Shown: positions 15,491 to 63,426 of the stretch, piece after piece
How positions within the stretch are numbered: position 1 is the stretch's first letter
How the letters are laid out: each line of letters starts with the position of its first letter
Origin: Candidatus Delongbacteria bacterium
Lineage (GTDB): Bacteria; CAIWAD01
Direction of reading: 5' to 3'
DNA: 64,000 nucleotides
NCBI GenBank assembly: GCA_020634015.1
Contig: JACKCN010000001.1
Coordinates: 659,258-723,257, forward strand
Program-made: the position numbers and the translations under genes
The notes under the pieces: generated by a model
Databases searched by the model: none
Seen by the model: only the letters and a program-made list of their open reading frames with translations
Told to the model about the DNA's origin: nothing

Positions 15491-16918
15491 ATGATGAACG
15501 AATTCCGACTGGAACACGACAGCATGGGAGAGGTCCGGGTCCCCGCCGACGTGTACTGGGGTGCCCAGACCCAGCGCTCGATCGAGCATTTTCCCATCGG
15601 CCGCGAACGATTCCGCTGGCCGCGTTCCGTGATCCGGGCCTTCGCCCTGGTCAAGGGTGCCGCCGCGCGCGCCAATGCCGAACTGGGACAACTGGACAAA
15701 GAGCTTGCCAAGGCCATCTCCGGGGCGGCCGCGGAAGTGGAATCGGGGCGCTGGGACACACAGTTTCCACTGGTGGTGTTCCAGACCGGATCCGGCACCC
15801 AGAGCAACATGAACGCCAACGAAGTGCTGGCCAACCTGGCCAACGAACGCCTGGGTCACGCGCTGGGCAGCCCCGGGCCGGTCCATCCCAATGACCATGT
15901 CAATCGCGGCCAGAGTTCCAATGATGTCTTCCCCACCGTGATGCATGTGGCCGTGCTGGGGGAACTGCAGGAGCGTCTGCTTCCGGCTCTCACCGGCCTG
16001 AAGAAAACCTTCGGGGCACTGGCGACTGAGCATGCCCTGCTGGTCAAGACCGGGCGCACGCACCTTCAGGACGCCACCCCGATCACACTGGGCCAGGAGG
16101 TCGGGGCCTGGGCCGCCCAGCTGAGCCTGGCACTGGACGCCCTTGACAGCGCCCGGCCCGGCGTGCTGCAGCTGGCCCTGGGCGGCACCGCTGTGGGCAC
16201 CGGGCTGAACGCACATCCCGGCTTTGCCGAGGCCGTGATCCAGGATCTGGCGCGGATCACGGGTCTGCCCTTGCGCCAGGCTCCCAATCTCTTTGCCGCC
16301 CTGGCCGGCCACGAGCCCCTGCTGCAGCTGAGCGCCGCTCTGCGCACCACGGCCGCGGCCCTGCTCAAGATCGCCAACGACATCCGCTGGCTGGCCAGCG
16401 GACCGCGCTGCGGCATCGGCGAGCTGCGTCTGCCCGAAAACGAACCGGGCTCTTCGATCATGCCCGGCAAGGTCAATCCCACCCAGTGCGAAGCGCTCTC
16501 GATGGTCTGCGTGCAGGTCTATGGCAACGACGCCGCCCTGGCCTTCGCCGCCAGCCAGGGGAATTTCCAGCTGAATGTCTACAAGCCCGTGATCCTGCAC
16601 AATGTGCTGGAAAGCATCGGGCTGCTGGCCGACGCCTGCGCGGCCTTTGACACCCACTGTGCCCGGGGAATCGAACCGGACCGGGCGCGCATCGCCGACC
16701 TGCTGGAGCGCAACCTGATGCGAGTCACGGCACTGGCTCCCCGGATCGGCTACGAACGGGCCGCGGCACTGGCGCATTCGGCCAGCCTGCGCGGGCTGAG
16801 TCTGCTGGAGGTCGCCCTCGAGGACAGCAGCCTGGATCCGGACGAGCTGGCGCGCTGGCTCGATCCCGCGCGACAGGCCCTGCCCAACCGGAAGACGGAC
16901 GACGATGACTCCCGCTGA
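15491..16918 (+). CDS. fumC: Class II fumarate hydratase
   Basis: [37 protein letters not shown] signatures. Confidence 0.9.
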
Positions 16919-20712: not shown

Positions 20713-20725
20713 GGGCCGTGTTTCC

Positions 20726-24864: not shown

Positions 24865-24873
24865 GACAAGACC

Positions 24874-41537: not shown

Positions 41538-44500
41538 ATGTTTGCCCGTTGGACTCCGCTCACTCTCCTGTCCATGCTCGGTGCGGGACTGCTGATCGCC
41601 TCAGCGCCGTCCCTGCACGCCGCAGGAAAGACGCCCCTCTTCGATTACCAGACCAAATCCACCGTCCAGCGCTTCAACCAGCAGCTGATCAACGTGGAGA
41701 ACGGCAAGTCTGCCGCCGAGGAGGGCAATGCGGTCACCAAGCCAGCCGGGCATGCCACGGCCGGAGACATCACGAATCCGCAGATGGATCCCGCCTGCCA
41801 GACCAACCCACAGTTCGACCCGGCCTGTCAGACCAATCCCGCGACCGATCCGGACTGCGTGACCAATCCGGTCACGGACCCGGCCTGTCGCACGAATCCG
41901 CAGTTCGATCCGACCTGCGTGCCCACCGACCCGGCCGTGGACCCCAATTGCATGACCAATCCGGATTTCGACCCGGCCTGCGTGCCCACCAATCCTCAGA
42001 TCGACCCGACCTGCCAGACCAATCCCGACTACGATCCGGTCTGCGGTCCTACCAATCCGGCCTTCGACCCGACCTGTCAGACCAATCCCGACTGGGATCC
42101 CGATTGCCAACCGACCAATCCCTCCTGGGACCCGATGTGCAACACTAATCCCCAGTACGATCCGACCTGCACCACCGACCCGTCGGTGAATCCTGAGTGT
42201 TACCAGACCAATCCGCAGTATCACTCGGCCTGTCAGACCCAGCCCCAGTGGGACCCCGCCTGCGGCTTCACCGATCCGGCCATGGATCCGAACTGCTTCA
42301 CCAATTCGGCATACATGCCCGAGTGCAGCACCAACCCGCAGTTCGACCCTTACTGCGAGACGAATCCCCAGTACATGGCGGGCTGCGACACCAATCCGAT
42401 CTACAACCCGGATTGCTACACCAACACGTTCTTCGATCCCAGCTGTCTGACTCAGCCAGCCTACGACCCGCACTGCTTCACGAATCCGGTGGACGGAACC
42501 AGCTGCGTGTCTAACCCGCTCTATGATCCGAGTTGCGAGACCAACCCGGTGTATGGCTTCTGCCAGACCAACCCCGACTTCGAACCGGGCTGTGAGACAA
42601 ACCCACTGTACCAGTCTTCCTGCGTGACCAGCACCTACTTTGACCCGTTCTGCCATACCAACCCACAGTATGCGCCGTCCTGTGCCACCAACCCTGAATT
42701 TGACGCGACCTGCAGCACCAACCCGCTGTATTCGCCCAATTGCCTGACGAACCCCGACCTGGATCCGCTCTGCGAGACCAACCCGGCCTGGGGCATTCCG
42801 TGCAGCACCAATCCCCAGTACACGCCCAATTGCGTGACCAACCCGCTGTACCAGAGCGCGTGCGAGACCAACCCGAATTATGTCGAGCATTGCGACACCA
42901 ATCCGGTGTACACACCCAACTGCGAGACCAACCCGATCTGGAGCGAGGCCTGCACCACCAACCCGGACTGGGACTTCTGCCACACCAATCCGCAGTATGG
43001 CCCGACCTGCCAGACCAATCCGCAGTACTTCCCCGAGTGCCAGACCAACCCGGCCTGGTCCAGTGCCTGCTCCACCAATCCGCAGCACGATCCGCATTGC
43101 GAAACCAATCCGGAGTATCAGGCCAACTGCCAGACAAACCCGCTGTTCAATCCGCTGTGCAGCACCGACCCCAGCTTCGATCCGGGCTGCCATACCGATC
43201 CGGATTTCGATCCGGCCTGCTACACCAATATGTGGTACGGTGGGTTCTGCGAGACCAATCCGATCTATGACACTCCCTGTGAGACCAACCCGGCCTGGGG
43301 CTTCTGCACCACAAACCCGACGGTCGAGCCGAATTGCCAGACCAATCCGCAGTACAGCCTGAACTGCAGCACCGATCCGTATTTCGACCCGTCCTGCTAC
43401 ACCAATCCGGCCAGCAGTCCCTTCTGCGTTACAAACCCGGACTACATGGCGGACTGCAACACCAACCCAGTGTACCAGGCAAGCTGCAGCACCAATCCGG
43501 ATTTCGACCCCGATTGCCAGACCAATCCGAGCTGGGGCGGCGACTGCAGCACCAATCCGCAGTACGATCCGGCCTGCCTGACCAATGCGCTGTACGATCC
43601 GGCCTGCCATACCAATCCGTTCTTCGACAGCCACTGCGAGACCAACCCGCAGTACTTCGAGAACTGCAGCACCAACCCGATCTATCAGTCGGGCTGCGAC
43701 ACCAATCCGGACTACGGATTCTGCATCACCAACCCGAACCATTTCCCGGGCTGCCACACCAATCCGCAGTACTATCTGGATTGCAACACCAACCCGAACT
43801 GGGTCTCGACCTGCATGACCAGTCCGCAATTCGACCCGACCTGTCAGGTGACCAATCCGGATCTGTATGCCAACTGCCACACCAACCCGGACTACAGCCC
43901 ACTGTGCCAGATGACCAATCCGGAATACTCCCCGGAATGCCAGACCGATCCGTCCTGGGATCCCACCTGTCTGGACACCAATCCGGTGTTCTCACCGAAT
44001 TGCTACACCAACCCGGTGCATGATCCGACCTGCCTGACACATCCGCAGTTCCAGCCGGAGTGCGAGACCAACCCGCAGTTCCTGCCCGGTTGCGACACCA
44101 ACCCGATCTACAACCCGGATTGCTGGTCGAATCCCTTCTTTGACCCGACCTGTTCGACCAATCCGAACTACGACCCGACCTGCTTCACCAACCCGGTGGA
44201 TGGCACGAGTTGCGTCTCCAACCCGCTCTACAATCCGCAGTGCGATACCAATCCGTCCTGGGGATTCTGCCAGACCGATCCGCAGTACGAGCCCGATTGC
44301 AATACGGATCCGCTCTTCAACCCGACCTGCGTGACCAATCCGTACTTCGATCCTTCGTGCCACACGAATCCGGCCTACACTCCGGATTGCGAGACCAATC
44401 CGCAATACCAGCCGGGATGCGATACCAATCCGCTGTACAACCCGGCCTGCCAGACGCACCCGGACTTCGACCAGCAGTGCCAGACCAATCCGGCCTATGG

Positions 44501-52128: not shown

Positions 52129-52512
52129 GGGGTTCCTCCGGATCAGGGTCCGTGGATCAGCCGCTGGCAGCTGGTCCGGCCTGCTTGACAGAGTGACAGA
52201 ATTCTCCCGCGGGGTACCGCACCGAGGACGCGGGGATCGCGGACGCGTGACCCGGGACGATTGCGCTCGATTCGAGCTGAATCCGCTTCCAAAGCCACTG
52301 GAAAATCGCCGGAGAGTATAGCAATTGCCATGACGCAAGCTTGATCCCGGTCAGTTTCAGGGCTGGCATGGGGCTTGCTTCAGCAGGACTGGTGCCACCC
52401 GCGCGGAGTCCCGCGGGTCCAGTGGTTGACACTTTCCCGCGCCTCCCGCTGCGGGGCGATTGCTACACTGCCGACCGCTCCGGCCGTACCGCCATGTCCA
52501 AGGAGAACCCCC

Positions 52513-55500
52513 ATGCTGCTCAGTTCAACCCTTCTGTCACTGATGATGGGTACCGCATTGCCGGCCACCCACGTGCAGGCCGCGCCAGAACCGGCCGCCC
52601 CGGCGACTGCCGCGCACCTGCCGCTGATCGAAACCGGCGCTCCCAGCCGGGAAATGATCGAGTTCTTCCGCCAGCAGGAGAAGCCCTGGCGCCGCCTGCC
52701 GCACTCCCACGGGGGTTCCGGCCTGCGCGACAGCCGCACCCTGTCCCAGTACGACGTCAGCTACTACGAGCTGGAGCTGGACATGCCCACGGCCAGTGCG
52801 GGAATGACCGGTGTCGTGCGCATGCACTTCCGCTCGCTCGAGCCGGACCTGGCCAGCATTGAGCTGCACGCGGGCGACAACCTGGGCCTGGACCAGGTGC
52901 TGGTCAACGGTCAGGCCGCCAGTTTCAGTCACACGGGCGATGACTTCACGGTCACGCTGCCCCAGCCCCTGGGCGAAGGCGAGTCCGCCGTGCTGGAAAC
53001 CCACTACACGGTCACCTATGGGGGCGGGGGCGTGCTGCCCGCCACGCGCACCAATGTGCAGACCAGCCAGAGCGTGGCCACCCTCACCACCCAGGCCGAA
53101 CCCTGGGACGCCCGTCGTTTCTGGCCCTGCCGCGACGAGCCCATCGACAAGGCCGACAGCCTGCTGGCACACATCACCACCCAGGACTACAACACCGTGG
53201 TGTCCAACGGAGTGCTGCGCTCGAATCTGGTCAATGGGGACGGCACCCGCACGGTGACCTGGTTCGAAGGCCTGCCCATGTCGACCTACCTGTTCTCGGT
53301 CTGCATCGCGCCCTACAATCACCGCAGCGACACCTGGAGCTGGAACGAGACCAGCATGCCCATGGAAGAATGGTCCTGGGGTCTCAGTCCCAGCGAGCAG
53401 CAATTCGTCTCACAGACGGGCATGGACGCGCTGACCGCCTTCTCCGATCTCTTCGGCCTGTATCCCTTCCATGAGCAGAAGTATGGCCATGCCCAGTATA
53501 CCTGGGGCGGGGCAATGGAACACCAGAGCGTGAGCTCGATGGGCTTCTACAACCAGGCTGTGATCGCCCACGAGCTGATGCACCAGTGGTTCGGCGACAA
53601 GCTGACCTGCGAGAGCTTTCACCACATCTGGCTCAACGAGGGCTGGGCCACCTATGGAGAAGCCCTGTTCTTCGAGTCGATCGGTGGCAGCCAGACCCTG
53701 CATGACTACATGGATTTCGAAGAGTATTACGGGGGCGGCACGATCTACGTCGAGAACCCCGAGTCGGAAAACATCTTCGACGGCAATCTGAGCTACGCCA
53801 AGGGCGCCTGGGTGCTGCACATGCTGCGTCACGTGATGGGCGACGAAGGCTTCTTCACGGCCGTGCGCGCCTATCTGGGCGGCAGCGACCCCTCGGCCTA
53901 TCGCACCGTGGACACCGCCGAATTCCAGTCCTTCATGGAAGCGGAATACGGCGAGTCACTGGACTGGTTCTTCACCCAGTGGATCCACGGCGAGTACTGG
54001 CCCGACTATGTCTGGAACTGGCAGACCCGCAGCGAGGGCCCACAGCTCTGGCTGGACATGGGTGTGGTCCAGCGCCAGCTGCCCGAACGCCAGTTGTTCA
54101 CCATGCCTCTGGATCTGGTCGTGTACTATCCCAACCAGCCCGATACCCTGGTGCGTCTCTTCAACGACCAGCCCAGCCAGAACTGGAGCATCGCACTGGC
54201 CGAACAGCCCGATTCGGTGCGCCTGGACCCGCAGAACTGGGTGCTGAGCAATGTCACTCGGGCCAGCGATCTGGACTCCGATCCGCGGCTGGTTGAGGTG
54301 CGGATAGTCGATGGGGAGGGCGCTGTCATGGAAGCCCTGCCCGACACCGATGCCTTCGGTCTTGAACTGGACCTGCAGAACTTCGGCGGCCCACTGACCG
54401 GGCTGAGTGCCGAACTGCAGAGCACGGATTCGCGGATTGCCCTGACTCCGCAGCAGCTCACTCCGGGAGCCCTCGAGCTGGGCCAGACGATCACGCTGGA
54501 ATTCGATGCCGCCAGCCTCTCACGCCTCGAGGGCCGCGTGGCCTTCAGCCTGGAACTGGCCTGGCCGGATCACGCGCTCAGTCTGCCCTTCAGCCTGCCC
54601 GGCTCGCATCCCAGCCTGATTCTGGTGGACGACGATACCGAAGGCAACTGGGAGCAACTCTTCCTCGCCGCCGCCGGCGACGAGGTCGTGCAATTGCTCA
54701 GCCCGGCTGAATTCCTGAGCCAGACTCCCGACACCCAGGCATTGCTGATCTGGCATCAGGGCAATGCCGGACGCATGCTGAGCCCGGACGAGCGCTCGGC
54801 TCTCGAGAGCTTCGTGGAACTGAGTGGACACGTGGTGCTCAGTGGCCAGGACCTGCTGCAATCCCAGGATCCTGTCTGGGCCCAGCAGTTCCTTGGCCTG
54901 GAAGTGATCCAAAGCTCGGTCAGCTCCAGTGCGGTCAGTGGCGAGATCACATCGATCTTTCCCGGCCAGCTGTTGTTCTTCATCAACGGAGGCGCGGGCA
55001 ACCAGACCCATATGGATCGTCTGGATCCGCTCAATGCCTTCCCTGTTTTCCATTATTTCAATTCGGTGGAAAGTGGAGATGCGGGCGTGGTGCATGAATC
55101 GGACATCAGCGGGGGCCGCGTGCTCAGTCTGGGCTTCGGGTTGGAAGGCATCAGCGGCGCGGGCACCAGCATGGACCTGGGCGAGGTGCTGGAACGCCTG
55201 ATCGCCTGGTCCCGCGGCGAGGTCGGCCTGAATGAACCCGGCCACGCATTGCCGCGCAGCCCCGTGCTGGACAGCGCCTGGCCCAACCCCTTCAATCCCG
55301 AAACCCGCGTATCCTTCACGCTGCCGCGCGAGGGCAATGTGGAGCTGATGGTCTACAATCTGGCGGGGCAGCTGGTGGACACCCTGCACCGCGGGCGTCT
55401 GGCGGCGGGAACCCACCAGGTGCTCTGGCGGGCCGAAGGGCGCTCCAGCGGAGTCTACCTGCTGCGTCTGGACGGTCCGGGAGGTGGTGATACCATGAAA

Positions 55501-55518
55501 GTGCTGCTGCTCAAGTGA
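52513..55518 (+). CDS. M1 family zinc aminopeptidase with C-terminal T9SS (Por) sorting domain
   Basis: HELMHQWFGD ... WLNEGWATY (HExxH-x18-E). Signal peptide. C-terminus WPNPFNPETRVSFTL ... GVYLLRLDG ... KVLLLK. AAGGAGAA RBS. Confidence 0.8.
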   Translation: MLLSSTLLSLMMGTALPATHVQAAPEPAAPATAAHLPLIETGAPSREMIEFFRQQEKPWRRLPHSHGGSGLRDSRTLSQYDVSYYELELDMPTASAGMTGVVRMHFRSLEPDLASIELHAGDNLGLDQVLVNGQAASFSHTGDDFTVTLPQPLGEGESAVLETHYTVTYGGGGVLPATRTNVQTSQSVATLTTQAEPWDARRFWPCRDEPIDKADSLLAHITTQDYNTVVSNGVLRSNLVNGDGTRTVTWFEGLPMSTYLFSVCIAPYNHRSDTWSWNETSMPMEEWSWGLSPSEQQFVSQTGMDALTAFSDLFGLYPFHEQKYGHAQYTWGGAMEHQSVSSMGFYNQAVIAHELMHQWFGDKLTCESFHHIWLNEGWATYGEALFFESIGGSQTLHDYMDFEEYYGGGTIYVENPESENIFDGNLSYAKGAWVLHMLRHVMGDEGFFTAVRAYLGGSDPSAYRTVDTAEFQSFMEAEYGESLDWFFTQWIHGEYWPDYVWNWQTRSEGPQLWLDMGVVQRQLPERQLFTMPLDLVVYYPNQPDTLVRLFNDQPSQNWSIALAEQPDSVRLDPQNWVLSNVTRASDLDSDPRLVEVRIVDGEGAVMEALPDTDAFGLELDLQNFGGPLTGLSAELQSTDSRIALTPQQLTPGALELGQTITLEFDAASLSRLEGRVAFSLELAWPDHALSLPFSLPGSHPSLILVDDDTEGNWEQLFLAAAGDEVVQLLSPAEFLSQTPDTQALLIWHQGNAGRMLSPDERSALESFVELSGHVVLSGQDLLQSQDPVWAQQFLGLEVIQSSVSSSAVSGEITSIFPGQLLFFINGGAGNQTHMDRLDPLNAFPVFHYFNSVESGDAGVVHESDISGGRVLSLGFGLEGISGAGTSMDLGEVLERLIAWSRGEVGLNEPGHALPRSPVLDSAWPNPFNPETRVSFTLPREGNVELMVYNLAGQLVDTLHRGRLAAGTHQVLWRAEGRSSGVYLLRLDGPGGGDTMKVLLLK

Positions 55519-57608
55519 GACACCTGCTTGCCCTGCTGGGACTGGCTGGCTGCGTGCTGGCCCAGGTTCCCGAACTGCTCGACAGCCGTCCCGGTGCCGA
55601 CTGTTTCCGGCTGGCTCCCTGGCCCGCGGGGGGTCTGATCGCCGGAGGAGATGGCGTGTTGCAACTCGTCTCGCCAACGCCTGAACTGGCCCCCGTGATG
55701 GGCGAGTGGCTCAGCCCGGGCACTCTGTCCGATCTGGCCGGCGATGGCGAGCATCTGCTGCAGGCGCTCGGTGGTGCGGGCCTGCTGGTCTGGGACGCCA
55801 GCACGGGCCTGAGCGAGCCCTGGACCCTGGCGGTTCCGGCCACCAAGGTCTGCGTGGATCAGGATTGGGCGACAAGCGCCGCCGGTTCCCAGCTGAGCCT
55901 GATCCAACTGAACGGAGCCGCTCCCGAAGTCGTGCACACGGCCAGCCTGCCCTCGGCCTGTGCCGCACTTGCCCAGCGCGATACTCTGCTTTATGCCTTC
56001 GACGACAGCCAGCTCCATCTGTACCACATCGATGCCACTGGCTTCGCGCTGCGCACCAGCCAGACTCTTTCTGCGCCCGTGCTGAAAGCCCGTGTGTCCG
56101 CCGACGAATTGCTGCTGGTGCACATGGATGGAGTCGTGGAACGGATTTCCCTCAATGCCCAGGGTCGGCCGACAGGGTCCGAAAATTGGTCCAGCATGCT
56201 GGCCCCCAACGACATTCTGGCCCTTGGCTCACAGCGTTACCTGCTGAGCGTGCCCGGAACGGGACTGCTGCCGCTGTTCTGGCCTGCGGGCGAAGCCGCG
56301 CAGCCGGGCACTCCCCGCCGGTTCGCCGACTGGAACGGCCAGCTCTGCGCTCTGGGCAATGGGCGCATCGCGGTGGCCGAAGGCGAAGCCGGTGGCGCGC
56401 TGTATCTCACGGACTCCGAGGGCGTGCCCCAGGCGCTGGGCCGCTTCTCAACCCGACCTCTCGCACGCAAACTGCTGCTCGACGATCAACTGCCCCATCA
56501 CGTCTGGCTGCTTGACGGAAGGCTCGGTCTGCGCCGTTTCCACAGCGAGCTTCTCACCGAGCGCATGCAGCTGGCCTTCCCTCGGCCCGTGATCGGTGGA
56601 GACCTGCGCGAGGGCTGGGCCGGGGCCGTCACCGAGGGCTCGGGACTGCGTTTCTATCAGGTCTTCGCCGACAGCTCGGCGATCAACGGCATCCACAGCA
56701 CCGACCCGATCGTGGACCTGGCGATGGGCCCGGAGCTGATGCTGGCCTACATCACGTCCAATGGTTTCGTGGCCATCAAGCAGATCAATCCCTTTCCCTA
56801 CACGCTGTTCCACTACGGCACGATCTTCCTCAACTGCCTGCCGGGAGCCGCCTTCTGGGTGGGCGACCAGTTCTTCCTTGGCAGTCAGGACGGACGCCTG
56901 TTCCACGTGGATGTCAGTGACCCGCAGGCTCCCACGCTGGTGGAAACCCTGCAACTGGCCGGCCCCGTGCGCGACGCCGACCCCTATCCGCCCGCCGCGC
57001 TGGACCGCATGCTGGTGAGCGCGGGCGACCTCTACCGCCTGGCCTTCCAGGGAGCGGGTCCCGTGATGATCGAAGACAGCTACCACCACGCCTGGGGCCC
57101 CGTGGCCTGCGCCTCGGTGGGCGAGCTGGTCTGCTTCGCCACCGGCAACACGCCCGTGATCGGTGCCTTTCCCGGCACGCGCGGCAATCCCTTCGGCCCC
57201 CTGCTCTCGCCGGAGACCTCACCCGCGCCCGCCATGGCCGACCTGCTGGACATGGGCGGGCTGGAGGTGCTGGGACTGACGGAAGCCGGCGATCTCAATC
57301 GTTACACCTTCGCGCAGTTGGACACGCCTGCGCCAGTCGCGTTGCCCTCGAGTCTCGGCCTGCGTGCCTTTCCCAATCCGGCGAATCCGGGCACGGTGCT
57401 GCAGTTTGAGCTGCGCACTCCTGCGCGTGTGACGGTGACCCTGGTGGACATGGCGGGGCGTGTGTGCCTCAGCCAGGCAATGGGCGAATTGGGCAGCGGG
57501 CAGCAGCGGGTGGCCCTGGATCTGGCGGGATTGGCCAGTGGGGTGTATCTGTGTCGGGTGAGCGCGGGCGCGGAATGGGAGAGTGTGCGGCTGAGTCTGG
57601 TGAAGTGA
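55515..57608 (+). CDS. Hypothetical secreted protein with C-terminal T9SS sorting domain
   Basis: GTG start overlaps the M1 peptidase stop (GTGA). Signal peptide. C-terminus AFPNPANPGTVLQFEL ... GVYLCRVSAGAEWESVRLSLVK. Confidence 0.6.
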   Translation: MRHLLALLGLAGCVLAQVPELLDSRPGADCFRLAPWPAGGLIAGGDGVLQLVSPTPELAPVMGEWLSPGTLSDLAGDGEHLLQALGGAGLLVWDASTGLSEPWTLAVPATKVCVDQDWATSAAGSQLSLIQLNGAAPEVVHTASLPSACAALAQRDTLLYAFDDSQLHLYHIDATGFALRTSQTLSAPVLKARVSADELLLVHMDGVVERISLNAQGRPTGSENWSSMLAPNDILALGSQRYLLSVPGTGLLPLFWPAGEAAQPGTPRRFADWNGQLCALGNGRIAVAEGEAGGALYLTDSEGVPQALGRFSTRPLARKLLLDDQLPHHVWLLDGRLGLRRFHSELLTERMQLAFPRPVIGGDLREGWAGAVTEGSGLRFYQVFADSSAINGIHSTDPIVDLAMGPELMLAYITSNGFVAIKQINPFPYTLFHYGTIFLNCLPGAAFWVGDQFFLGSQDGRLFHVDVSDPQAPTLVETLQLAGPVRDADPYPPAALDRMLVSAGDLYRLAFQGAGPVMIEDSYHHAWGPVACASVGELVCFATGNTPVIGAFPGTRGNPFGPLLSPETSPAPAMADLLDMGGLEVLGLTEAGDLNRYTFAQLDTPAPVALPSSLGLRAFPNPANPGTVLQFELRTPARVTVTLVDMAGRVCLSQAMGELGSGQQRVALDLAGLASGVYLCRVSAGAEWESVRLSLVK

Positions 57609-57714: not shown

Positions 57715-58032
57715 TCACACAGCCCGGACGCGCAGGCGAATTCCTAGTGCTTTGGTGACTTTCAGGATGGTGGCGAAGCTCGGGTTGCCGTGCTCGCTCA
57801 GGGCTTTGTACATGCTTTCACGACTCAGACCAGCCTCACGGGCGACCAGCGCCATGCCCTTCGCGCGGGCGATATCGCCCAAGGCCCGAGCGATTCCCGC
57901 GATGTCATCCGGGGCTTCCTCGAACCAGGCATCCAGGTAGGCGGCCATTTCCTCCGGTGTACGCAATTGCTCGGAGACATCGTATTCCACGGTCCGAATG
58001 ACTGGCGAGGTGGTCTTGGTGGTTCTGGGCAT
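57715..58032 (-). CDS. HigA-family addiction-module antidote (XRE-type HTH) protein
   Basis: PEEMAAYLDAWFEE ... IARAKGMALVAREAGLSRESMYKALS ... PSFATILKVTKALGIRL matches the antidote family that pairs with RelE/HigB-like killers. Confidence 0.7.
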   Translation of the reverse strand: MPRTTKTTSPVIRTVEYDVSEQLRTPEEMAAYLDAWFEEAPDDIAGIARALGDIARAKGMALVAREAGLSRESMYKALSEHGNPSFATILKVTKALGIRLRVRAV

Positions 58033-58036
58033 CGTG

Positions 58037-58329
58037 CTATTCCTCAAGACTTCGTACCAGCGTTCGCGCAAGAAGGATGTCTGCTCTTTGGGAGGACTTG
58101 ACCCCTCCGACCAGCAAGATGATCAGTTCCTGCCCTCTTTGAGTGTAGTACACGCGATAGCCGGGACCCACATCCACTTTAGCTCTGAGATTCCGGACGC
58201 CAGATTCCGGTACTTCCCTGGATTGCCGTGGGCCAATCGGTCCACACGCACCTGAATCCGAGCCCTCGCTGCTCGATCCTTGAGTGCATTGATCCAGTCG
58301 CGATACATCTCGGTCATCCGAACGCGCAT
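58037..58329 (-). pseudogene. RelE/ParE-superfamily (HigB-like addiction-module killer) toxin gene disrupted by a 1-nt deletion
   Basis: The N-terminal half is in one frame (MTEMYRDWINALKDRAARARIQVRVDRLAHGNPGKYRNLASGISELK) and the C-terminal half in the +1 frame (KVDVGPGYRVYYTQRGQELIILLVGGVKSSQRADI). The join at about 58188 lies in a G run (AAAG-TGG). Confidence 0.6.
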
Positions 58330-58499: not shown

Positions 58500-59303
58500 T
58501 CAGGAAGAGCGGGCGGCCAGCAGGTGGTCGACCAGTTCGGCGAAGCCGGCGCCGCCGCGCGCGGGTGTGATCCAGGCGGGCTCGTGCTCGAGCAGATCAC
58601 GGAAGTCCAGCAGGTTGGCCACGCCCACGGAGCCTTCGCGGAAAAAGGAGAACATCGGCTCGTCGTTGGGGCTGTCGCCGGCGAAGGCGCAGATCGACTG
58701 GGTGGGCGGGGAATCGGGGTCCATGTCGAAGTGCTGGCGCAGGTACTCGCGGGCGGCGCTCAGTTTGTCAAAGTGACCGTACCAGCCATTGACATGAATC
58801 GAACTGATCTTGGCGGTGGCGCCCGCCTCCTCGAAGAGCCGCTGGATCTTCAGAACATCCTCGCGGGGCAGGCGCGGCACATCCTCACAGAAATCGATGG
58901 CCAGATCGTATTCGCGATAGCTCTGGTCGCTGGCGATGGCACACCCCGGCACCTCGCGCAGGATGCGCTCGCGCACGGCCTGCAGTTTTTCGCGAAAGCC
59001 TGTCCGGGTGGCGCTGTCGTACACGAAGTCGCGCCGCAAGCGGCCGCCCTCCATGCGGAAGACCAACCCGCCGTTCTCGCCGATCACGCCGTGCACGGGC
59101 CACATCCGGGCGATGTGATCACACCAGCCCGCCGGCCGGCCCGTCACGGGCACCACGGCCAGTCCCGCCTCATGAGCCTGCCAGAGAGCCCGGTACGCGG
59201 GCGCGGGAATCCGTCCTTCGCTCGAGATGGTGTCGTCGATGTCGCTGAAGAGAATGCTGACCCGGGCCGCTTTCTCGCGTGTCCATTCGGCAAGCGGACG
59301 CAT
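58500..59303 (-). CDS. HAD-superfamily (Cof-like, IIB) phosphatase
   Basis: ILFSDIDDT motif I. The ATG shares one nucleotide with the stop of the upstream CDP-alcohol phosphatidyltransferase gene. Confidence 0.65.
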   Translation of the reverse strand: MRPLAEWTREKAARVSILFSDIDDTISSEGRIPAPAYRALWQAHEAGLAVVPVTGRPAGWCDHIARMWPVHGVIGENGGLVFRMEGGRLRRDFVYDSATRTGFREKLQAVRERILREVPGCAIASDQSYREYDLAIDFCEDVPRLPREDVLKIQRLFEEAGATAKISSIHVNGWYGHFDKLSAAREYLRQHFDMDPDSPPTQSICAFAGDSPNDEPMFSFFREGSVGVANLLDFRDLLEHEPAWITPARGGAGFAELVDHLLAARSS

Positions 59304-59890
59304 CAGGCGGTACGGCCCTGGGCGGCCCCGATGCCTGCCAGCAGCCGGCGGTTGCTGGCGACATAGTCCACGAAGGACCAGGCCGTCCAGAGTGCGGCCA
59401 CCAGCACCAGCCACCAGGCCGCGCGCTGGATCAGGGCGTCGTTGAACCATTGCGGGAAGGGGTGCACGAGGATGCGCGCCAGCAGGATCGCGATGATCAC
59501 GGTGGCCTGGATGATCGCCTTCAGCTTGCCGCTGCCACGGGCGGCCAGCACCAGCCCTTTGGAGGCGCAGACCGTGCGCAGGGTGCTGACGGCGCTGTCG
59601 CGGTAGACGAAGATCAGCACCATCCACCAGGGAATCAGGCCCACGCTCATGAAGGCGATGAAGACGGTGATGCGGCTGATCGAGTCGGCCAGCGGATCCA
59701 GCAGCTTGCCGAAGTCGGTGACTTCGCCACGGCTGCGCGCGATGTGGCCGTCGAATCCATCGGTCAACTCGGACATCACCACGATGGCCAGGGCCGCGAC
59801 CCGCGCCCAGAATCCTTCCTGCATGAACGCGAGAACGAAGATCGGGCTCAGGAAGATGCGCGCCGCGGTGAGCTGGTTGGCAAGGGTCAT
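59303..59890 (-). CDS. CDP-alcohol phosphatidyltransferase (PgsA-like)
   Basis: DGFDGHIARSRGEVTDFGKLLDPLADS signature (D-G-x2-A-R-x8-G-x3-D-x3-D). Multi-TM. Confidence 0.75.
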   Translation of the reverse strand: MTLANQLTAARIFLSPIFVLAFMQEGFWARVAALAIVVMSELTDGFDGHIARSRGEVTDFGKLLDPLADSISRITVFIAFMSVGLIPWWMVLIFVYRDSAVSTLRTVCASKGLVLAARGSGKLKAIIQATVIIAILLARILVHPFPQWFNDALIQRAAWWLVLVAALWTAWSFVDYVASNRRLLAGIGAAQGRTA

Positions 59891-60010: not shown

Positions 60011-61909
60011 CTATTTGTGCTGGCTGTTCCCGTTGATGCCCCGGTTGCGCAGGCTCACCGGGCGGATCATGTTCTGAGGATCAAGGATGCTGGCGATCTC
60101 CTCCTCCGTGACCCAGCCATGCTCGCGCACCAGCTCCGAGACCGGCCTGCCGGTCTTGAGCGCTTCCTTGGCCACCTGGGTCGAGCGGCTGTAGCCGATG
60201 TGCGGCAGCAGGGCCGTGACCAGCCCGATGCTGCCCATCACCATCTCGCGGCAATGCTCCTCGTTGGCCGTGATGCCTTCGATGCAGAACTTGCGCAGGG
60301 TGGTGAAGGCCCGGGTGAGCATGTCGATGCTCTGGAAGATGTTGAAGACGATCACCGGCTCCATCACGTTCAGCTGCAGCTGGCCATTTTCCGCCGCCAT
60401 GGTCACGGTCAGATCGTTGCCCACCACCTGATAGGCGACCTGGTTGACCACCTCGGGAATCACCGGATTGACCTTGCCCGGCATGATGCTGGAACCGGCG
60501 GCGCGCGGCGGCAGATTGATTTCGCCCAGCCCGCAGCGCGGCCCGGAACTGAGCAGGCGCAGGTCGTTGCAGACCTTGGAGATCTTGATCGCGATCCGGC
60601 GCAGGGTGCTGGAAAATGCCTGCAGCGAGCCCGTGTCGCTGCTGGCCTCGATCATGTCGGGGCTCAGGCGGAAATCCATGCCCGTGACCTTGCGCAGCGC
60701 GCGCAGGGCTTCCTGGGGATAGGCCGGGTCGGCGCAGATGCCCGTGCCGATGGCCGTGCCGCCCAGATTGGTCTCCATGAACTGGCGCGCCGTCTCGCGC
60801 ACGCGTTCCATGTCCTCCTCGATGCCGTGCGCCCAGGAGAGGAATTCCTGCCCCAGGGTCATGGGCACCGCATCCTGCAACTGGGTGCGCCCCATCTTGA
60901 TCACCCACTCGAACTCACGCGCCTTGTGTTTCAGCGCCACCACCAGATCATCCATCGCGTCCAGCATCTGGGGATAACTGAGCAGAATCGCCAGACGGAA
61001 GGCCGTGGGGTACACGTCGTTCGTGCTCTGTGACATGTTGACGTGGTCGTTGGGATGCACACGCTCGTAGTGGCCCTTGGCCTCGCCCAGAATCTCGAGC
61101 GCCCGGTTGGCGATGACCTCGTTGGCGTTCATGTTGGTGCTGGTGCCCGCACCTCCCTGGATCATGTCCACCACGAACTGGTTGTGCAGGTGGCCGTTGA
61201 GGATGTCGTCGCAGGCCCGCGTGATCGCTCCCGCGACCTCGGGTTCAAGCATGTCCAGCTTGAGGTTGGCCAGGGCAGCGGCCTTCTTCACCATCGCCAG
61301 CGCCCGGATGAAGTGGGGAAAGTGGCTGATCCGGATGCCCGAGATGTCAAAGTTCTCGAGGGCCCGCATGCTCTGCACGCCGTAATACGCGTTCTCGGCA
61401 ATGCGCATCGGGCCGATCAGGTCGTGCTCCTCGCGCGTCTCACCGGTCTGGTAGACCGAGGCCACGCCTTCCTGCCCGCTCGAGGACAGGCCGGCCATCA
61501 GGCGCCGGAAGACCACCCGCCCCGCGCGCGAGATCATCTTGGCCGCGGCCAGCGGGTTCCGTTCCATGTAGGCCAGAAACTGTTCGCGCTCGAGGTACCA
61601 GAGCTCACTGTCCTCCACCACCCGGGCCGAGGTGGAATGGGAGCTCTCGTCCAGCAGACAGGCCTCGCCGAAGTAGTTGCCCTCGCGGTACACCAGCAGC
61701 AGCTTGTCCTGGTCGTGTTCGCCGCCCATCACCTGGATCTTGCCGCTCTGCACGAAGTACACCCGGTGGCGGTGGTCGCCTCCCTGATAGATCGAACTGC
61801 CCGCCGGCAGCGATGTGTGCTGGAACTGGGCGGCAATCTCCTTGAGTTCCGCCTCCTGCAGCACTTCGAAGATCTCATTTGTCTGCAGGCGCTGGATCAG
61901 GTAGTTCAC
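60011..61909 (-). CDS. Cyclic-nucleotide-binding (CAP effector-like) domain fused to aspartate ammonia-lyase
   Basis: The N-terminal about 150 aa carry the beta-roll and FGEACLL phosphate-binding-cassette-like motif. The C-terminal about 470 aa carry GTSTNMNANEV, SQSTNDVYPT, and [15 protein letters not shown] (the aspartase-type SS loop). Confidence 0.8.
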   Translation of the reverse strand: MNYLIQRLQTNEIFEVLQEAELKEIAAQFQHTSLPAGSSIYQGGDHRHRVYFVQSGKIQVMGGEHDQDKLLLVYREGNYFGEACLLDESSHSTSARVVEDSELWYLEREQFLAYMERNPLAAAKMISRAGRVVFRRLMAGLSSSGQEGVASVYQTGETREEHDLIGPMRIAENAYYGVQSMRALENFDISGIRISHFPHFIRALAMVKKAAALANLKLDMLEPEVAGAITRACDDILNGHLHNQFVVDMIQGGAGTSTNMNANEVIANRALEILGEAKGHYERVHPNDHVNMSQSTNDVYPTAFRLAILLSYPQMLDAMDDLVVALKHKAREFEWVIKMGRTQLQDAVPMTLGQEFLSWAHGIEEDMERVRETARQFMETNLGGTAIGTGICADPAYPQEALRALRKVTGMDFRLSPDMIEASSDTGSLQAFSSTLRRIAIKISKVCNDLRLLSSGPRCGLGEINLPPRAAGSSIMPGKVNPVIPEVVNQVAYQVVGNDLTVTMAAENGQLQLNVMEPVIVFNIFQSIDMLTRAFTTLRKFCIEGITANEEHCREMVMGSIGLVTALLPHIGYSRSTQVAKEALKTGRPVSELVREHGWVTEEEIASILDPQNMIRPVSLRNRGINGNSQHK

Positions 61910-61969
61910 TCTGGGCTCCTTGCGGAAACGGACCGTGAGCCGGTCCGGGGTGGATCATCTCGTCGGCGT

Positions 61970-63304
61970 CTACAGATAGCGCAGGGGCTGGCCCTGGGGC
62001 GAGCCCAGGAAGACTCCTTCGCGCCAGACCAGGTTGCCACGCAGCACGGTGGCCTTCACGCGGCCGCAGAGTTCGCGGCCTTCCCAGGGCGTCCAGCCCG
62101 CGCGGCTCTGCAGGTGTTCGGCGCGCACGGCCCAGCGCTCGTCGGGGTCCACGATCGCCAGATCACCATCGAACCCGCGCGCCAGCCGTCCCTTGCCCAG
62201 GACACCGTAGATCCGTGCCGGTCCCTCGCTGTAGAGGCGCACCAGATCATCCAGTCCCAGTCGGCCGTGACTCACCTGATCCAGCAGCACGGGCAGCACG
62301 GTCTCGACCCCGGGCATGCCGCTGGGGCAGTCGGGGTAATCGCGCGCCTTCTCCTCCAGAGTGTGCGGAGCGTGATCGCTGCCGATGACCGTGATCAGCC
62401 CCGAGCGCAGGGCCGCCCAGAGCGCCTTGCCGTGCTCGGCCTCGCGCACCGGAGGATTCATCTGGGCGTGACTGCCCAGCTCTTCGTAACACCCGGGTGC
62501 GGTCATCAGCAGATGCTGGGGAGTGGTTTCCACGGTCACCAGCGGATTGCCCCGCCAGCGCTCGAGCAGCTCCATTTCCTCGCGGCTGTTGGTGTGCAGC
62601 ACATGCACGGGCCGCCCACAGGCCAGAGCGGTTTCCACCAGCCGCTCGACCGCCAGTCGGGCACATTCCGGGTCACGCAGGCGCGTGTGCCAGCGCGGAT
62701 GATCGGCCTGCTTGCCATGCAGGGCCTTCAGTTCCAGCAGGCGCGCATTGTCCTCGGCGTGCACGGCCACCCGACGTGTGCCGTGAGCCAGCACGGTGCG
62801 CAGGTCCTCGGCATTGTCCACCAGCAGGCTGCCCGTGGACGACCCCATGAAGATCTTGACCCCCGCGCAGCCCGGCAGCCGTTCCAGCTGTCCCAGCTCG
62901 CGCGCATTGTCCGCCGTGGCGCCCATGAAAAAAGCGAAGTCGGCCCAGCTGCTGGCGCGCGCCCGTTCAATCTTGTCCGCCAGACTGGCCGCATCCACGG
63001 TGGCCGGCCGCGTGTTGGGCATTTCCATGTAGGAGGTGACCCCGCCAGCGATCGCCGCCCGGCTGCCGCTGCCCAGGTCTTCCTTGTGGGTCAGCCCCGG
63101 CTCGCGAAAGTGCACCTGGCTGTCCAGCATGCCCGGCAGCACCACCAGCCCGTCCAGATCGAGGCTCTCCTCGTCCGCCGCCGCCTTCAGCCCGCTGCCC
63201 AGTTCCACGATGCGCCCCGCGCGGATCCGCAGGTCCCTCAAGGGCAGATCGCCCTCCTGGAATACCCGCCCACCCCGCACCAGCAGGTTGCCCGCCTTGT
63301 CCAT
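61970..63304 (-). CDS. pyrC: Dihydroorotase-like cyclic amidohydrolase
   Basis: DSQVHFREPG (HxH metal site), KIFMGSSTG, VIGSDHAPH. The ORF is open upstream; I chose ATG 63304. Confidence 0.75.
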   Translation of the reverse strand: MDKAGNLLVRGGRVFQEGDLPLRDLRIRAGRIVELGSGLKAAADEESLDLDGLVVLPGMLDSQVHFREPGLTHKEDLGSGSRAAIAGGVTSYMEMPNTRPATVDAASLADKIERARASSWADFAFFMGATADNARELGQLERLPGCAGVKIFMGSSTGSLLVDNAEDLRTVLAHGTRRVAVHAEDNARLLELKALHGKQADHPRWHTRLRDPECARLAVERLVETALACGRPVHVLHTNSREEMELLERWRGNPLVTVETTPQHLLMTAPGCYEELGSHAQMNPPVREAEHGKALWAALRSGLITVIGSDHAPHTLEEKARDYPDCPSGMPGVETVLPVLLDQVSHGRLGLDDLVRLYSEGPARIYGVLGKGRLARGFDGDLAIVDPDERWAVRAEHLQSRAGWTPWEGRELCGRVKATVLRGNLVWREGVFLGSPQGQPLRYL

Positions 63305-63395: not shown

Positions 63396-63426
63396 AAAAA
63401 AGCCCCGGACAGGTTGCCCGGGGCGA
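63396..63426 (-). terminator. Rho-independent terminator downstream of the VOC gene
   Basis: On the minus strand, GCCCCGGGCAACCTGTCCGGGGC followed by TTTTTT. Confidence 0.5.

What the first reader, a model, noticed from the sequence alone, without database searches (positions are those of the whole stretch)
60011..61909. Cyclic-nucleotide-binding domain fused to aspartate ammonia-lyase
A CAP-effector-like beta-roll with an FGEACLL PBC-like motif is fused in frame N-terminal to a complete aspartase carrying [15 protein letters not shown]. The PBC region lacks the canonical R[ST]A and instead reads TSARV, so the ligand may not be cAMP/cGMP. A ligand-gated aspartase would be an unusual metabolic control point. 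A conventional fumC lacking this domain is also present in the window.
Basis: seen in the sequence. Interest (0 to 1): 0.6.

Follow-up and report, generated by a model that had tools for sequence, protein, structure and literature searches.

The report
Sensor-fused aspartase with altered binding cassette
A real, single gene joins a CRP-like small-molecule sensor domain to a complete aspartase; the fusion is widespread across more than ten bacterial phyla, is annotated only as "aspartate ammonia-lyase", appears unstudied, and its sensor has swapped the residue pair that normally clamps the cAMP phosphate, so its ligand is unknown.

Summary
Window 60011-61909 (-) is one 632-aa ORF with a Shine-Dalgarno site. 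It holds a cNMP_binding domain (residues 33-118), a long C-helix, a short tether and a full aspartase. It is not a frameshift or misassembly. All 120 best database relatives share the architecture, as do 39 of the 80 best aspartase loci in species-representative genomes, from Acidobacteriota to Actinomycetota.

The sensor is a distinct CNB subfamily. The phosphate-clamp Arg is always His (or rarely Tyr), in 0 of 160 cases Arg. The beta2-beta3 Gly that co-evolves with that Arg is an invariant Arg47. Arg136 on the C-helix is also invariant. The ribose-contacting Gly-Glu is kept.

Context points to a catabolic aspartase: DcuA transporters adjoin the fusion gene in five phyla. No cyclase lies nearby.

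Fused enzymes are not a clade (0 of 100 bootstraps). One old fusion with repeated sensor loss is the simplest reading.

No paper found describes this fusion.

The most likely function is an allosterically gated aspartase responding to an anionic ligand. I favour a nucleotide, with 2-oxoglutarate or a C4-dicarboxylate, or haem, as alternatives. Gating and ligand are inferred, not shown. I rate it a new variant of a known kind, of moderate interest.

The parts
60011..61909 (-). Complete fusion gene, 632 aa, GTG start: sensor, tether and aspartase
   Evidence: ORF. Three Pfam domains. The identical protein occurs in three public assemblies and is in NCBI as MCA9784497.1, named 'aspartate ammonia-lyase'.
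61916..61921 (-). Shine-Dalgarno AAGGAG, 6 nt upstream of the GTG start
   Evidence: Read directly from the sequence.
61556..61813 (-). Beta-roll of the cNMP_binding (CAP effector-type) domain, residues 33-118
   Evidence: Pfam PF00027, E 7e-18. AF2 pLDDT is about 90-98. Best Foldseek hits are T. thermophilus CAP, Mtb CRP, GlxR and DNR.
61619..61675 (-). Binding cassette (PBC-equivalent), residues 79-97: YFGEACLLDESSHSTSARV
   Evidence: Family consensus F-x-G-E-[GA]-A-L-L-x4-H-[ST]-[TA]-[ST]-[CA]-R-A. HMM alignment to PKG places 'spHstsa' on 'EPRTASI'.
61637..61639 (-). His91 codon (CAT) at the position of the canonical phosphate-clamp Arg (PKA RI-alpha Arg209, CRP Arg82)
   Evidence: His in 117/121 and 36/39 sequences; all others have Tyr and none has Arg. 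Register.
61769..61771 (-). Arg47 codon (CGC) in the beta2-beta3 loop, at the position of the canonical Gly (PKA Gly169) that co-evolves with the clamp Arg
   Evidence: Arg in 117/121 and 39/39 sequences. It aligns with the Gly of PfPKG 'EVGSRFY'. The Gly169-Arg209 coupling is from Kannan 2007.
61484..61555 (-). Long C-helix, residues 119-142, with invariant Arg136 (codon 61502-61504). Its small and hydrophobic residues follow a heptad-like pattern (A122, L126, V129, M/V133, L137, A140), like a CRP dimerisation helix
   Evidence: AF2 helix 119-142. Arg136 is present in 121/121 and 39/39 sequences. Dimerisation is inferred.
61442..61483 (-). Tether, residues 143-156, ending in the conserved Y-x-[ST]-G junction
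   Evidence: pLDDT is below 50. Gly148 occurs in 105/121, Tyr153 in 62/121 and Gly156 in 114/121. The junction motif is seen across phyla. dN/dS is 0.03 against the nearest relative, from about 14 codons only.
60056..61441 (-). Aspartate ammonia-lyase catalytic module, residues 157-618
   Evidence: PRK12273 scores 725 bits. Best PDB matches are the aspartases 6wng, 3oce and 1jsw at 512-561 bits, against fumarases at 373 bits or less.
60464..60496 (-). SS-loop signature [11 protein letters not shown], residues 472-482
   Evidence: Invariant in all 121 family members and aligned to the 6wng aspartase.
61970..63304 (-). Upstream gene on the same strand: dihydroorotase (pyrC-type), separated by a 60-nt gap
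   Evidence: NCBIfam PRK09060 scores 559 bits against a 482 cutoff. The same neighbour is present only in close relatives.
58500..59890 (-). Downstream genes on the same strand: pgsA (59303-59890) and a HAD-IIB hydrolase (58500-59303)
   Evidence: TIGR00560 pgsA scores 118 bits against a 109 cutoff, and TIGR01484 is also matched. No terminator-like site lies between them and the fusion gene.
15494..16918 (+). Separate conventional class II fumarase (fumC) without a sensor
   Evidence: tblastn gives 40% identity to the lyase module. TIGR00979 scores 645 bits, and the protein carries the fumarase-type motif [10 protein letters not shown].

Best explanation
This is a native catabolic aspartase (L-aspartate to fumarate plus ammonium). 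Its N-terminus carries a CRP-like effector domain that acts as a built-in allosteric sensor.

The sensor keeps the CNB fold, the PBC length, the ribose-contacting Gly-Glu and the small residue at the Ala202 position. It has exchanged the canonical Gly(beta2-beta3)/Arg(PBC) pair for Arg47/His91 and added an invariant Arg136 on the C-helix.

I propose that Arg47, His91 and Arg136 together hold an anionic small ligand. A nucleotide-type ligand (cyclic or not) seems most likely, bound in a non-canonical way. I further propose that binding repositions the C-helix and the short conserved tether, and so controls the N-terminal domain and active-site access of the aspartase tetramer. The C-helix probably pairs with that of a second subunit, as in CRP.

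By analogy with cAMP-CRP control of aspA transcription and GlnB stimulation of AspA in E. coli, the ligand-bound form is probably the active one.

Shown: the fusion, its breadth, the residue signature, purifying selection, and the aspartate-uptake context. Inferred: ligand binding, ligand class, dimerisation, and direction of regulation.
For: - Single ORF with an RBS and uniform GC3.
- All 120 best relatives are fused, as are 39 of the 80 best loci in species-representative genomes across at least ten phyla.
- The apparent stand-alone sensors are frameshifted fusion genes.
- The sensor is under purifying selection, with dN/dS 0.36.
- Its invariant set is R47, G56, E82, H/Y91 and R136, despite only 31% median pairwise identity.
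- The His91=Arg209 and Arg47=Gly169 register comes from HMM alignment to PKG. Kannan 2007 shows those two canonical positions co-evolve and are in contact.
- The fold is closest to CRP-family effector domains, including the C-helix.
- The Ala202-equivalent stays Ala or Ser, unlike nucleoside-binding trypanosomatid PKA, where a Glu blocks the phosphate site.
- A DcuA transporter lies next to the fusion gene in five phyla, and an SDF symporter with a sigma54 two-component system lies next to it in another locus. This matches the E. coli dcuA-aspA unit.
- Post-translational control of plain AspA by GlnB is documented.
Against: - No ligand, binding or kinetic data exist.
- I could not inspect model coordinates, so the proximity of Arg47, His91 and Arg136 is inferred from homology, not measured.
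- The tether is predicted to be disordered, and the monomer model says nothing about packing on the tetramer.
- No cyclase, phosphodiesterase or other cNMP component was found in the window or next to any homologue.
- Loss of the clamp Arg usually lowers cNMP affinity strongly (Kannan 2007).
- Many lineages appear to have discarded the sensor, so it is dispensable for the enzyme.
Confidence: 0.5

Rival explanations
1. The sensor binds a carboxylate metabolite rather than a nucleotide. Candidates are 2-oxoglutarate, as in NtcA, or a C4-dicarboxylate or amino acid such as fumarate, malate or L-aspartate. Aspartase flux would then be set directly by nitrogen/carbon status or by its own substrate or product.
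For: - Two invariant Arg residues, a His and a Ser/Thr-rich stretch (positions 92-94) form a typical carboxylate-binding set. The resemblance to DcuS/CitA-type sites is from my own knowledge.
- NtcA shows that the CNB pocket can bind 2-oxoglutarate.
- E. coli AspA is tuned by the 2-OG-responsive PII protein GlnB.
- No cyclase is linked to any locus.
Against: - Glu82 is kept in 157 of 160 sequences. In canonical domains it binds the ribose 2'-OH, and a conserved acidic residue in the pocket is awkward for a dicarboxylate.
- NtcA has Val at that position and keeps the PBC Arg (from the sequence as I recall it, not tested here).
- Overall sequence and fold similarity is highest to cAMP and cGMP binders.
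Confidence: 0.22
2. The sensor is a haem-based gas or redox sensor of the CooA/DNR type, with His91 (or Tyr) as the axial ligand and the conserved arginines holding the propionates. Aspartase would then respond to O2, NO, CO or redox state, for example to feed fumarate respiration.
For: - In CooA the haem-ligating His sits at the position structurally analogous to Arg209 (Kannan 2007).
- Position 91 alternates only between His and Tyr, both classical haem ligands.
- Many small residues line the pocket: G/A83, A84, A72, A/C95, A97 and A130.
- The haem-binding regulator DNR is among the closest folds.
- The window organism and many hosts are anaerobes.
Against: - The rest of the cassette is canonical (G-E, length, [ST] at +3), whereas haem-binding relatives have thoroughly remodelled cassettes.
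- No conserved second axial ligand is evident. Residue 2 is not a conserved Pro, and no second invariant His, Cys or Met exists.
- The fusion also occurs in strict aerobes such as Chthoniobacter and Nocardia.
Confidence: 0.08
3. The domain no longer binds any ligand. It would serve as a structural, oligomerisation or partner-docking module, for example to tether aspartase to a transporter or to stabilise the tetramer, like the ligand-free CNB-homology domains of KCNH channels.
For: - The canonical clamp is lost.
- The sensor diverges fast, at 31% median identity against 66% for the enzyme, and has been lost repeatedly.
- AspA is known to contact DcuA and DcuB.
Against: - The residues that stay invariant across more than ten phyla are exactly the pocket-facing positions (PBC, beta2-beta3 loop, C-helix face) rather than a surface patch.
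- Glu82 would have no reason to be conserved in a ligand-free domain.
- dN/dS of 0.36 shows continuing constraint.
Confidence: 0.12
4. The sensor is an ordinary cAMP or cGMP receptor in spite of the His, so this is simply cAMP-activated aspartase.
For: - Gly-Glu, cassette length and the [ST] at +3 are canonical.
- Best matches are cAMP and cGMP receptors.
- aspA belongs to the cAMP-CRP regulon in E. coli (my own knowledge).
Against: - No sequence of 160 retains the clamp Arg, and both members of the co-evolving Gly/Arg pair are replaced. A family under selection for standard cNMP binding would be expected to keep them.
- No cyclase is linked to any locus.
Confidence: 0.2
5. The fusion is an artefact: a frameshift, misassembly or wrong start codon joining two genes.
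For: Two MAG homologues are split by frameshifts, which shows that such errors occur in this gene family.
Against: - The identical 632-aa protein is found in three independent assemblies.
- About 160 homologues are fused.
- The gene has an RBS at the start and uniform GC3.
Confidence: 0.01

Closest known systems
Aspartate ammonia-lyase (AspA of E. coli, AspB of Bacillus sp. YM55-1; PDB 1jsw, 1j3u, 6wng)
   Same: Residues 157-618 align end to end with solved aspartases at 512-561 bits. The SS loop [11 protein letters not shown] and all superfamily signature regions are invariant. The gene pairs with DcuA in several phyla, as in E. coli.
   Different: It carries 156 extra N-terminal residues forming a sensor domain and tether. 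No solved aspartase has these. TIGR00839 falls just under its equivalog cutoff, at 666 against 681 bits.
Effector (cAMP-binding) domain of CRP/CAP-family regulators (T. thermophilus CAP 4ev0, Mtb CRP, GlxR)
   Same: These are the best structural matches: TM about 0.7-0.8, rmsd 2.2-2.6 A, and up to 34% identity. The match includes the long C-helix used for dimerisation.
   Different: There is no helix-turn-helix output domain; the output is an enzyme. The clamp Arg is replaced by His, the beta2-beta3 Gly by Arg, and the residue equivalent to CRP Thr127 (by my hand alignment) is an invariant Arg.
Mycobacterial protein acetyltransferase Pat (Rv0998 / MSMEG_5458): an N-terminal CNB domain fused to a GNAT enzyme, activated by cAMP
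   Same: It follows the same design principle: one N-terminal CNB domain allosterically controls a C-terminal enzyme on the same chain. The Pat model NF058543 weakly matches residues 12-129 (E 4e-6).
   Different: The catalytic partner differs (GNAT against a tetrameric lyase). Pat has a canonical Arg-containing cassette and binds cAMP (my own knowledge). Here the cassette is non-canonical and the ligand is unknown.
Non-canonical CNB modules with other ligands: NtcA (2-oxoglutarate), CooA (haem), trypanosomatid PKA-R (purine nucleosides)
   Same: All show that changes at the Arg209 position re-target the pocket. CooA also has His at that position.
   Different: NtcA and CooA are transcription factors with remodelled cassettes. 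Trypanosomatid PKA-R also carries Ala202 to Glu, which blocks the phosphate site. This family keeps Ala or Ser there and adds Arg47 and Arg136.
GlnB (PII) stimulation of E. coli AspA
   Same: It is post-translational tuning of aspartase by a small-molecule-sensing protein that reports metabolic status.
   Different: It acts in trans through a separate PII protein. Here the sensor is fused in cis and belongs to an unrelated fold.

Membership tests
Aspartate ammonia-lyase (fumarase/aspartase class II superfamily) | Lyase_1 and FumaraseC_C domains over the full length | tested here: met
   PF00206 at E 1e-91 and PF10415 at E 2e-21.
Aspartate ammonia-lyase (fumarase/aspartase class II superfamily) | SS-loop signature GSSxMPxKxNP | tested here: met
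   [11 protein letters not shown] at residues 472-482, invariant in 121 family members.
Aspartate ammonia-lyase (fumarase/aspartase class II superfamily) | Scores as aspartase rather than fumarase, above curated cutoffs | tested here: met
   PRK12273 scores 725 bits against a 510 cutoff, while fumC_II scores 477 against 665. PDB aspartases score 512-561 bits against 373 or less for fumarases. The strict equivalog TIGR00839 is narrowly missed, at 666 against 681.
Aspartate ammonia-lyase (fumarase/aspartase class II superfamily) | Catalyses L-aspartate deamination | not testable with these tools
   Needs an enzyme assay measuring fumarate at 240 nm.
Cyclic-nucleotide-binding domain (PF00027 / CAP_ED) | Profile match above the gathering threshold, and the beta-roll plus alpha-helical fold | tested here: met
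   64.8 bits against a 27.5 cutoff. The AF2 sensor model has pLDDT 90.6. Foldseek gives probability 1.00 to CRP, PKG and HCN CNB domains.
Cyclic-nucleotide-binding domain (PF00027 / CAP_ED) | Gly-Glu of the phosphate-binding cassette (ribose 2'-OH contact) | tested here: met
   Gly81 is present in 112/121 and Glu82 in 120/121 sequences; in the genome set the figures are 32/39 and 37/39.
Cyclic-nucleotide-binding domain (PF00027 / CAP_ED) | Phosphate-clamp Arg of the cassette (PKA Arg209, CRP Arg82) | tested here: not met
   His91 in the window protein. Across the family, 153 have His, 7 have Tyr and none of 160 has Arg.
Cyclic-nucleotide-binding domain (PF00027 / CAP_ED) | Beta2-beta3 loop Gly (PKA Gly169) co-conserved with the clamp Arg in canonical binders | tested here: not met
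   Arg47 occupies this position (117/121 and 39/39 sequences). The coupling is described in Kannan 2007.
Cyclic-nucleotide-binding domain (PF00027 / CAP_ED) | Binds cAMP or cGMP | not testable with these tools
   Needs ITC, DSF or a co-crystal structure.
CRP/FNR transcription factors | C-terminal helix-turn-helix DNA-binding domain | tested here: not met
   No HTH_Crp_2 or Crp domain is present; the C-terminal part is a lyase.
CooA-type haem sensors | His at the Arg209-equivalent position acting as haem ligand | tested here: inconclusive
   His is present at that position. Haem binding cannot be tested here. No conserved second axial ligand was found.
Trypanosomatid-type nucleoside-binding CNB (ribose-binding cassette) | Glu at the Ala202-equivalent position, together with loss of the clamp Arg | tested here: not met
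   Position 84 is Ala 82, Ser 22, Thr 7 and Cys 4 of 121, and never Glu. The criterion is taken from PMC10959531.
CNB-enzyme fusions of the Pat (Rv0998) type | N-terminal CNB domain fused to a GNAT acetyltransferase | tested here: not met
   The partner is a lyase and no GNAT domain is present. Only the design principle is shared.

The most novel reading that the evidence does not exclude
The Arg47/His91/Arg136 module is a new ligand class of the CNB fold. It would sense a central metabolite rather than a cyclic nucleotide: 2-oxoglutarate or a C4-dicarboxylate, or alternatively haem or a gas. Bacteria of more than ten phyla would then gate aspartate deamination directly by nitrogen/carbon or redox status through a cis-fused sensor. 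That would be a one-protein equivalent of the GlnB-AspA and CRP-aspA controls of E. coli.
Probability: 0.3. Interest if true: 0.7.

Novelty: new variant of a known kind. Interest (0 to 1): 0.55.

Why it matters
Aspartase sits at the junction of amino-acid catabolism, nitrogen supply and fumarate respiration, and it is an industrial biocatalyst. Its known controls are transcriptional or act through separate proteins. This family shows that many phyla, including gut Bacteroidales, soil Acidobacteriota and Verrucomicrobiota, and Actinomycetota, have wired a small-molecule sensor directly onto the enzyme. Databases nevertheless label these proteins as plain aspartases.

The sensor is also a clean natural experiment in CNB allostery. 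Both members of the Gly169/Arg209 pair, which was proposed to couple phosphate binding to the rest of the domain, are exchanged together across a large and ancient family.

Identifying the ligand would define a new metabolic control point. It could also give a switchable aspartase for biocatalysis. Cultured carriers (Chthoniobacter flavus Ellin428, Nocardia sp. JMUB6875) make the question directly testable.

Tried and rejected
1. Representative-library search with the sensor alone. It was swamped by multi-CNB proteins such as PKG-like ones, whose domain scores add up, so it gave no estimate of family size.
2. Genome scan with the sensor-only alignment A2. I re-ran it with the full-length alignment and separated fused from unfused loci by query coverage and an HMM.
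3. Sensor-profile search of the large protein database. It returned mostly contig-end fragments. The two apparent free-standing sensors turned out to be frameshifted fusion genes, so there is no true split-gene (Rosetta-stone) evidence.
4. AFDB fold search for organism names and architectures. The library was unavailable.
5. Conserved-neighbour analysis. No cyclase, phosphodiesterase, PII or haem gene recurs. Only DcuA recurs, in 5 of 45 fused loci. The pyrC and pgsA neighbours of the window are shared only by close relatives.
6. Rfam scan of the window. It found no riboswitch or other RNA element.
7. Single origin as a clade. This was rejected: fused lyase domains are never monophyletic. My second bootstrap criterion, that unfused Rikenellaceae group with fused Bacteroidota, was too permissive to carry weight by itself. 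The identity values (71-75% against a 63% median) are the better evidence.
8. Reading the Arg in 'TSARV' as a shifted clamp. This was rejected: it lies at +5, where canonical domains also have Lys or Arg, and it is only about 68% conserved.
9. I could not measure distances between Arg47, His91 and Arg136, because model coordinates are not exposed by the tools.
Full report
**Observation.** Window 60011-61909 (minus strand) is one uninterrupted 632-aa ORF starting at GTG. AAGGAG lies 6 nt upstream of the start. Pfam finds cNMP_binding at residues 33-118 (E 7e-18), Lyase_1 at 168-497 (E 1e-91) and FumaraseC_C at 563-615. NCBIfam names residues 157-618 aspartate ammonia-lyase: PRK12273 scores 725 bits against a 510 cutoff. 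The strict equivalog TIGR00839 is narrowly missed, at 666 against 681. The best solved relatives are aspartases (6wng, 3oce, 1jsw; 512-561 bits), well ahead of fumarases at 373 bits or less. No PDB entry covers both halves. GC3 is 0.89 in the sensor half and 0.90 in the lyase half.

**Not an artefact, and common.** The identical protein occurs in three independent assemblies with the same neighbours. It is in NCBI as MCA9784497.1 and two other accessions, from Calditrichaeota/Cloacimonadota MAGs, named only 'aspartate ammonia-lyase'. All 120 best hits in the 5.8-billion-protein collection (52-84% identity, 614-658 aa) carry the same three domains. A scan of one genome per species kept the 80 best aspartase loci, and 39 of them encode sensor and lyase in one ORF. 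The carriers are:
- Thermoanaerobaculales, Holophagae and other Acidobacteriota
- Bacteroidales, Rikenellaceae, Rhodothermaceae, Melioribacteraceae and Chlorobiota
- Gemmatimonadota, Myxococcota and Desulfobacterales
- Anaerolineae and Planctomycetaceae
- Verrucomicrobiota, including the isolate Chthoniobacter flavus Ellin428
- Nocardia sp. JMUB6875, also an isolate

Two apparent stand-alone sensors on long contigs are frameshifted copies of the fusion gene.

**The sensor.** AlphaFold gives a confident beta-roll with a 24-residue C-helix (119-142). The sensor-only model has pLDDT 90.6. In the full-length model the 13-residue tether (143-155) is disordered. Foldseek places the sensor closest to the effector domains of CRP-family regulators: T. 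thermophilus CAP at 34% identity, Mtb CRP, GlxR and DNR, with rmsd 2.2-2.6 A.

Across the family the sensor diverges much faster than the enzyme. Median pairwise identity is 31% for the sensor and 66% for the lyase. dN/dS against the nearest relative is 0.36 for the sensor and 0.17 for the lyase. A small set of residues is nevertheless essentially invariant in 121 database relatives and in the 39 independent genome loci:

| Residue | Database relatives (121) | Genome loci (39) |
|---|---|---|
| Arg47 | 117 | 39 |
| Gly56 | 121 | 39 |
| Glu82 | 120 | 37 |
| Position 91 | His 117, Tyr 4 | His 36, Tyr 3 |
| Arg136 | 121 | 39 |

No sequence has Arg at position 91.

**Register of the altered residues.** Profile alignment to solved PKG domains puts the family's 'P-H-s-t-s' on the canonical 'P-R-T-A-S'. 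It also puts Arg47 on the Gly of 'E-V-G-S-R-F-Y'. His91 is therefore the replacement of the phosphate-clamp Arg (PKA Arg209), and Arg47 replaces the beta2-beta3 Gly (PKA Gly169).

Kannan et al. 2007 showed that exactly these two positions co-evolve and are in contact in canonical cAMP binders. So this family has exchanged both members of the pair. Canonical domains also have a basic residue there (by my hand alignment), and it is only about two-thirds conserved.

By my hand alignment to E. coli CRP, anchored on the Asn-Pro that starts the C-helix, Arg136 falls at the position of Thr127. That residue contacts the adenine of cAMP. This step rests on a remembered sequence and is inference.

Other CNB proteins recovered with the sensor profile keep PRSA or SRTA. 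The His signature is therefore specific to the aspartase fusion.

**What the pocket might bind.** Three readings remain open.

- **(a) A nucleotide-type ligand.** Gly-Glu, the cassette length and the [ST] at +3 are canonical. The Ala202-equivalent stays Ala or Ser. In nucleoside-binding trypanosomatid PKA it becomes a Glu that occludes the phosphate site. A guanidinium from Arg47 could reach the place vacated by the clamp Arg. This is inferred from the Gly169-Arg209 contact.
- **(b) A carboxylate metabolite.** Two Arg residues, a His and Ser/Thr suit a dicarboxylate. NtcA binds 2-oxoglutarate in the same pocket. E. coli AspA is tuned by the 2-OG-responsive GlnB. The conserved Glu82 argues against this reading.
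- **(c) Haem.** CooA uses a His at this very position as its haem ligand, and position 91 alternates only with Tyr. However, the rest of the cassette is not remodelled, and no second axial ligand is conserved.

I rank them (a) > (b) > (c). A fourth possibility is a domain that binds no ligand at all.

**Role of the enzyme.** Gene neighbourhoods differ among distant members. An all-against-all comparison of flanking ORFs from 45 fused and 41 unfused loci found one recurrent neighbour at fused loci. It is a DcuA_DcuB transporter, next to the fusion gene in Syntrophobacteraceae, Nocardia, Anaerolineales, Chthoniobacter and Planctomycetaceae. Another member lies behind an SDF symporter, a HisKA/sigma54 pair and amino-acid-binding proteins.

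This mirrors the co-transcribed and physically interacting DcuA-AspA unit of E. coli, which takes up aspartate for fumarate respiration and nitrogen supply. No cyclase, phosphodiesterase, PII protein or second CNB protein was found beside any homologue or among the window genes I scanned. Rfam finds no riboswitch.

In the window the gene lies between a dihydroorotase and pgsA plus a HAD hydrolase, all on the same strand. A terminator-like hairpin occurs only upstream of the dihydroorotase gene. That arrangement is shared only with close relatives.

**Evolution.** On lyase-domain trees, fused and plain aspartases interleave, and fused sequences were monophyletic in 0 of 100 bootstrap replicates. 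Unfused Rikenellaceae enzymes are 71-75% identical to fused Bacteroidales ones, which exceeds the fused-to-fused median of 63%. They also begin MDITK(M)PLSGKTRKEHDLLG, keeping the SG-x-TR stub of the fusion junction. All sensors share one distinctive signature. The simplest account is therefore one old fusion followed by repeated loss of the sensor. This is tentative, because it rests on neighbour-joining only.

**Mechanism proposed.** The protein would be a catabolic aspartase whose N-terminal CRP-like module binds an anionic ligand through Arg47, His91 and Arg136. Binding would reposition the C-helix, which probably pairs with that of another subunit as in CRP. The signal would pass through the short, conserved Y-x-S-G tether to the N-terminal domain of the lyase, and so alter active-site access in the tetramer. 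The fusion, the residue signature, its conservation and the metabolic context are shown. Ligand binding, its identity, dimerisation and the direction of regulation are inferred.

**Comparison with what is known.** The catalytic half is a member of the aspartase family. The sensor is a member of the CNB fold family but fails two features that define canonical cyclic-nucleotide binders. It is not a CRP/FNR transcription factor, because it has no HTH domain. The nearest design precedent is the mycobacterial CNB-GNAT acetyltransferase Pat (my own knowledge; weak model match).

The 2007 census of 30 CNB families lists no lyase fusion. Five full-text searches combining aspartase terms with cyclic-nucleotide terms found nothing relevant. 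Subscription-only literature was not searched, and the domain architecture is of course visible in domain databases.

**Verdict.** This is a real and widespread fusion. It appears uncharacterised, and its sensor cassette is distinctive. I rate it a new variant of a known kind (an enzyme fused to a CNB sensor), with interest 0.55.

Noticed in passing
window 23204-26643 (+): A NuoE-like 2Fe-2S protein, a NuoF-like flavoprotein and an [FeFe]-hydrogenase (large and small subunit domains) lie in a row. This is a HydABC-type, probably electron-bifurcating, hydrogenase cluster, and it indicates a fermentative anaerobe.
   Followed up: no
window 41538-45986 (+): A 1482-aa ORF has unusual codon-position composition (GC1 0.49 against about 0.65 elsewhere) and Pfam Extensin_1 proline-rich repeats. 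It could be a real repetitive surface protein or a spurious ORF over other genes.
   Followed up: no
window 26963-30721 (-), 52375-55518 (+), 55515-57608 (+): Three large proteins end in the T9SS C-terminal sorting domain (Por_Secre_tail). One has five CarboxypepD_reg repeats and one is an M1 peptidase. This fits an FCB-group host, consistent with the Calditrichaeota/Cloacimonadota labels on the identical NCBI protein.
   Followed up: partly
window 19780-22942 (-): Polyphosphate kinase PPK1 lies next to a Ppx/GppA phosphatase.
   Followed up: no
window 16905-18545 (+): A 546-aa ORF with nitroreductase-family similarity starts inside the last codons of fumC. The possible functional link to fumC was not examined.
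   Followed up: no
window 63402-63424 (-): A strong terminator-like hairpin (10-bp stem, 8 GC pairs, T-run) lies between the glyoxalase-family gene and the dihydroorotase gene. No such site lies between pyrC, the fusion gene, pgsA and the HAD hydrolase, so these four may form one transcription unit.
   Followed up: partly
L010 6001-7858 and L011 6001-7853: In two MAGs the fusion gene is split by a frameshift into a 'cyclic nucleotide-binding protein' and a separate lyase ORF. These could be sequencing errors or pseudogenes. Such splits could mislead architecture counts.
   Followed up: yes
L040, L048, L049, L055 (unfused Rikenellaceae aspartases): These plain aspartases begin MDITK(M)PLSGKTRKEHDLLG. 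They retain the SG-x-TR junction stub of the fused enzymes, as if the sensor had been deleted. They are 71-75% identical to fused Bacteroidales lyase domains.
   Followed up: partly
P0318 (234 aa) and P0288 (295 aa): P0318 joins the C-terminus of glucose-6-phosphate dehydrogenase to a canonical CNB domain (PRSA), which is another fusion of a metabolic enzyme to a CNB domain. P0288 joins the N-half of a succinyl-CoA ligase alpha subunit to the C-half of a His-type sensor on a 1.2-kb contig, and is probably a chimeric assembly.
   Followed up: no
window 4116-6433 (-) and 57715-58071 (-): A LexA repressor is followed by an IMS-family (Pol IV/ImuB-like) polymerase. A separate small gene encodes an HI1420-type antitoxin.
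   Followed up: no
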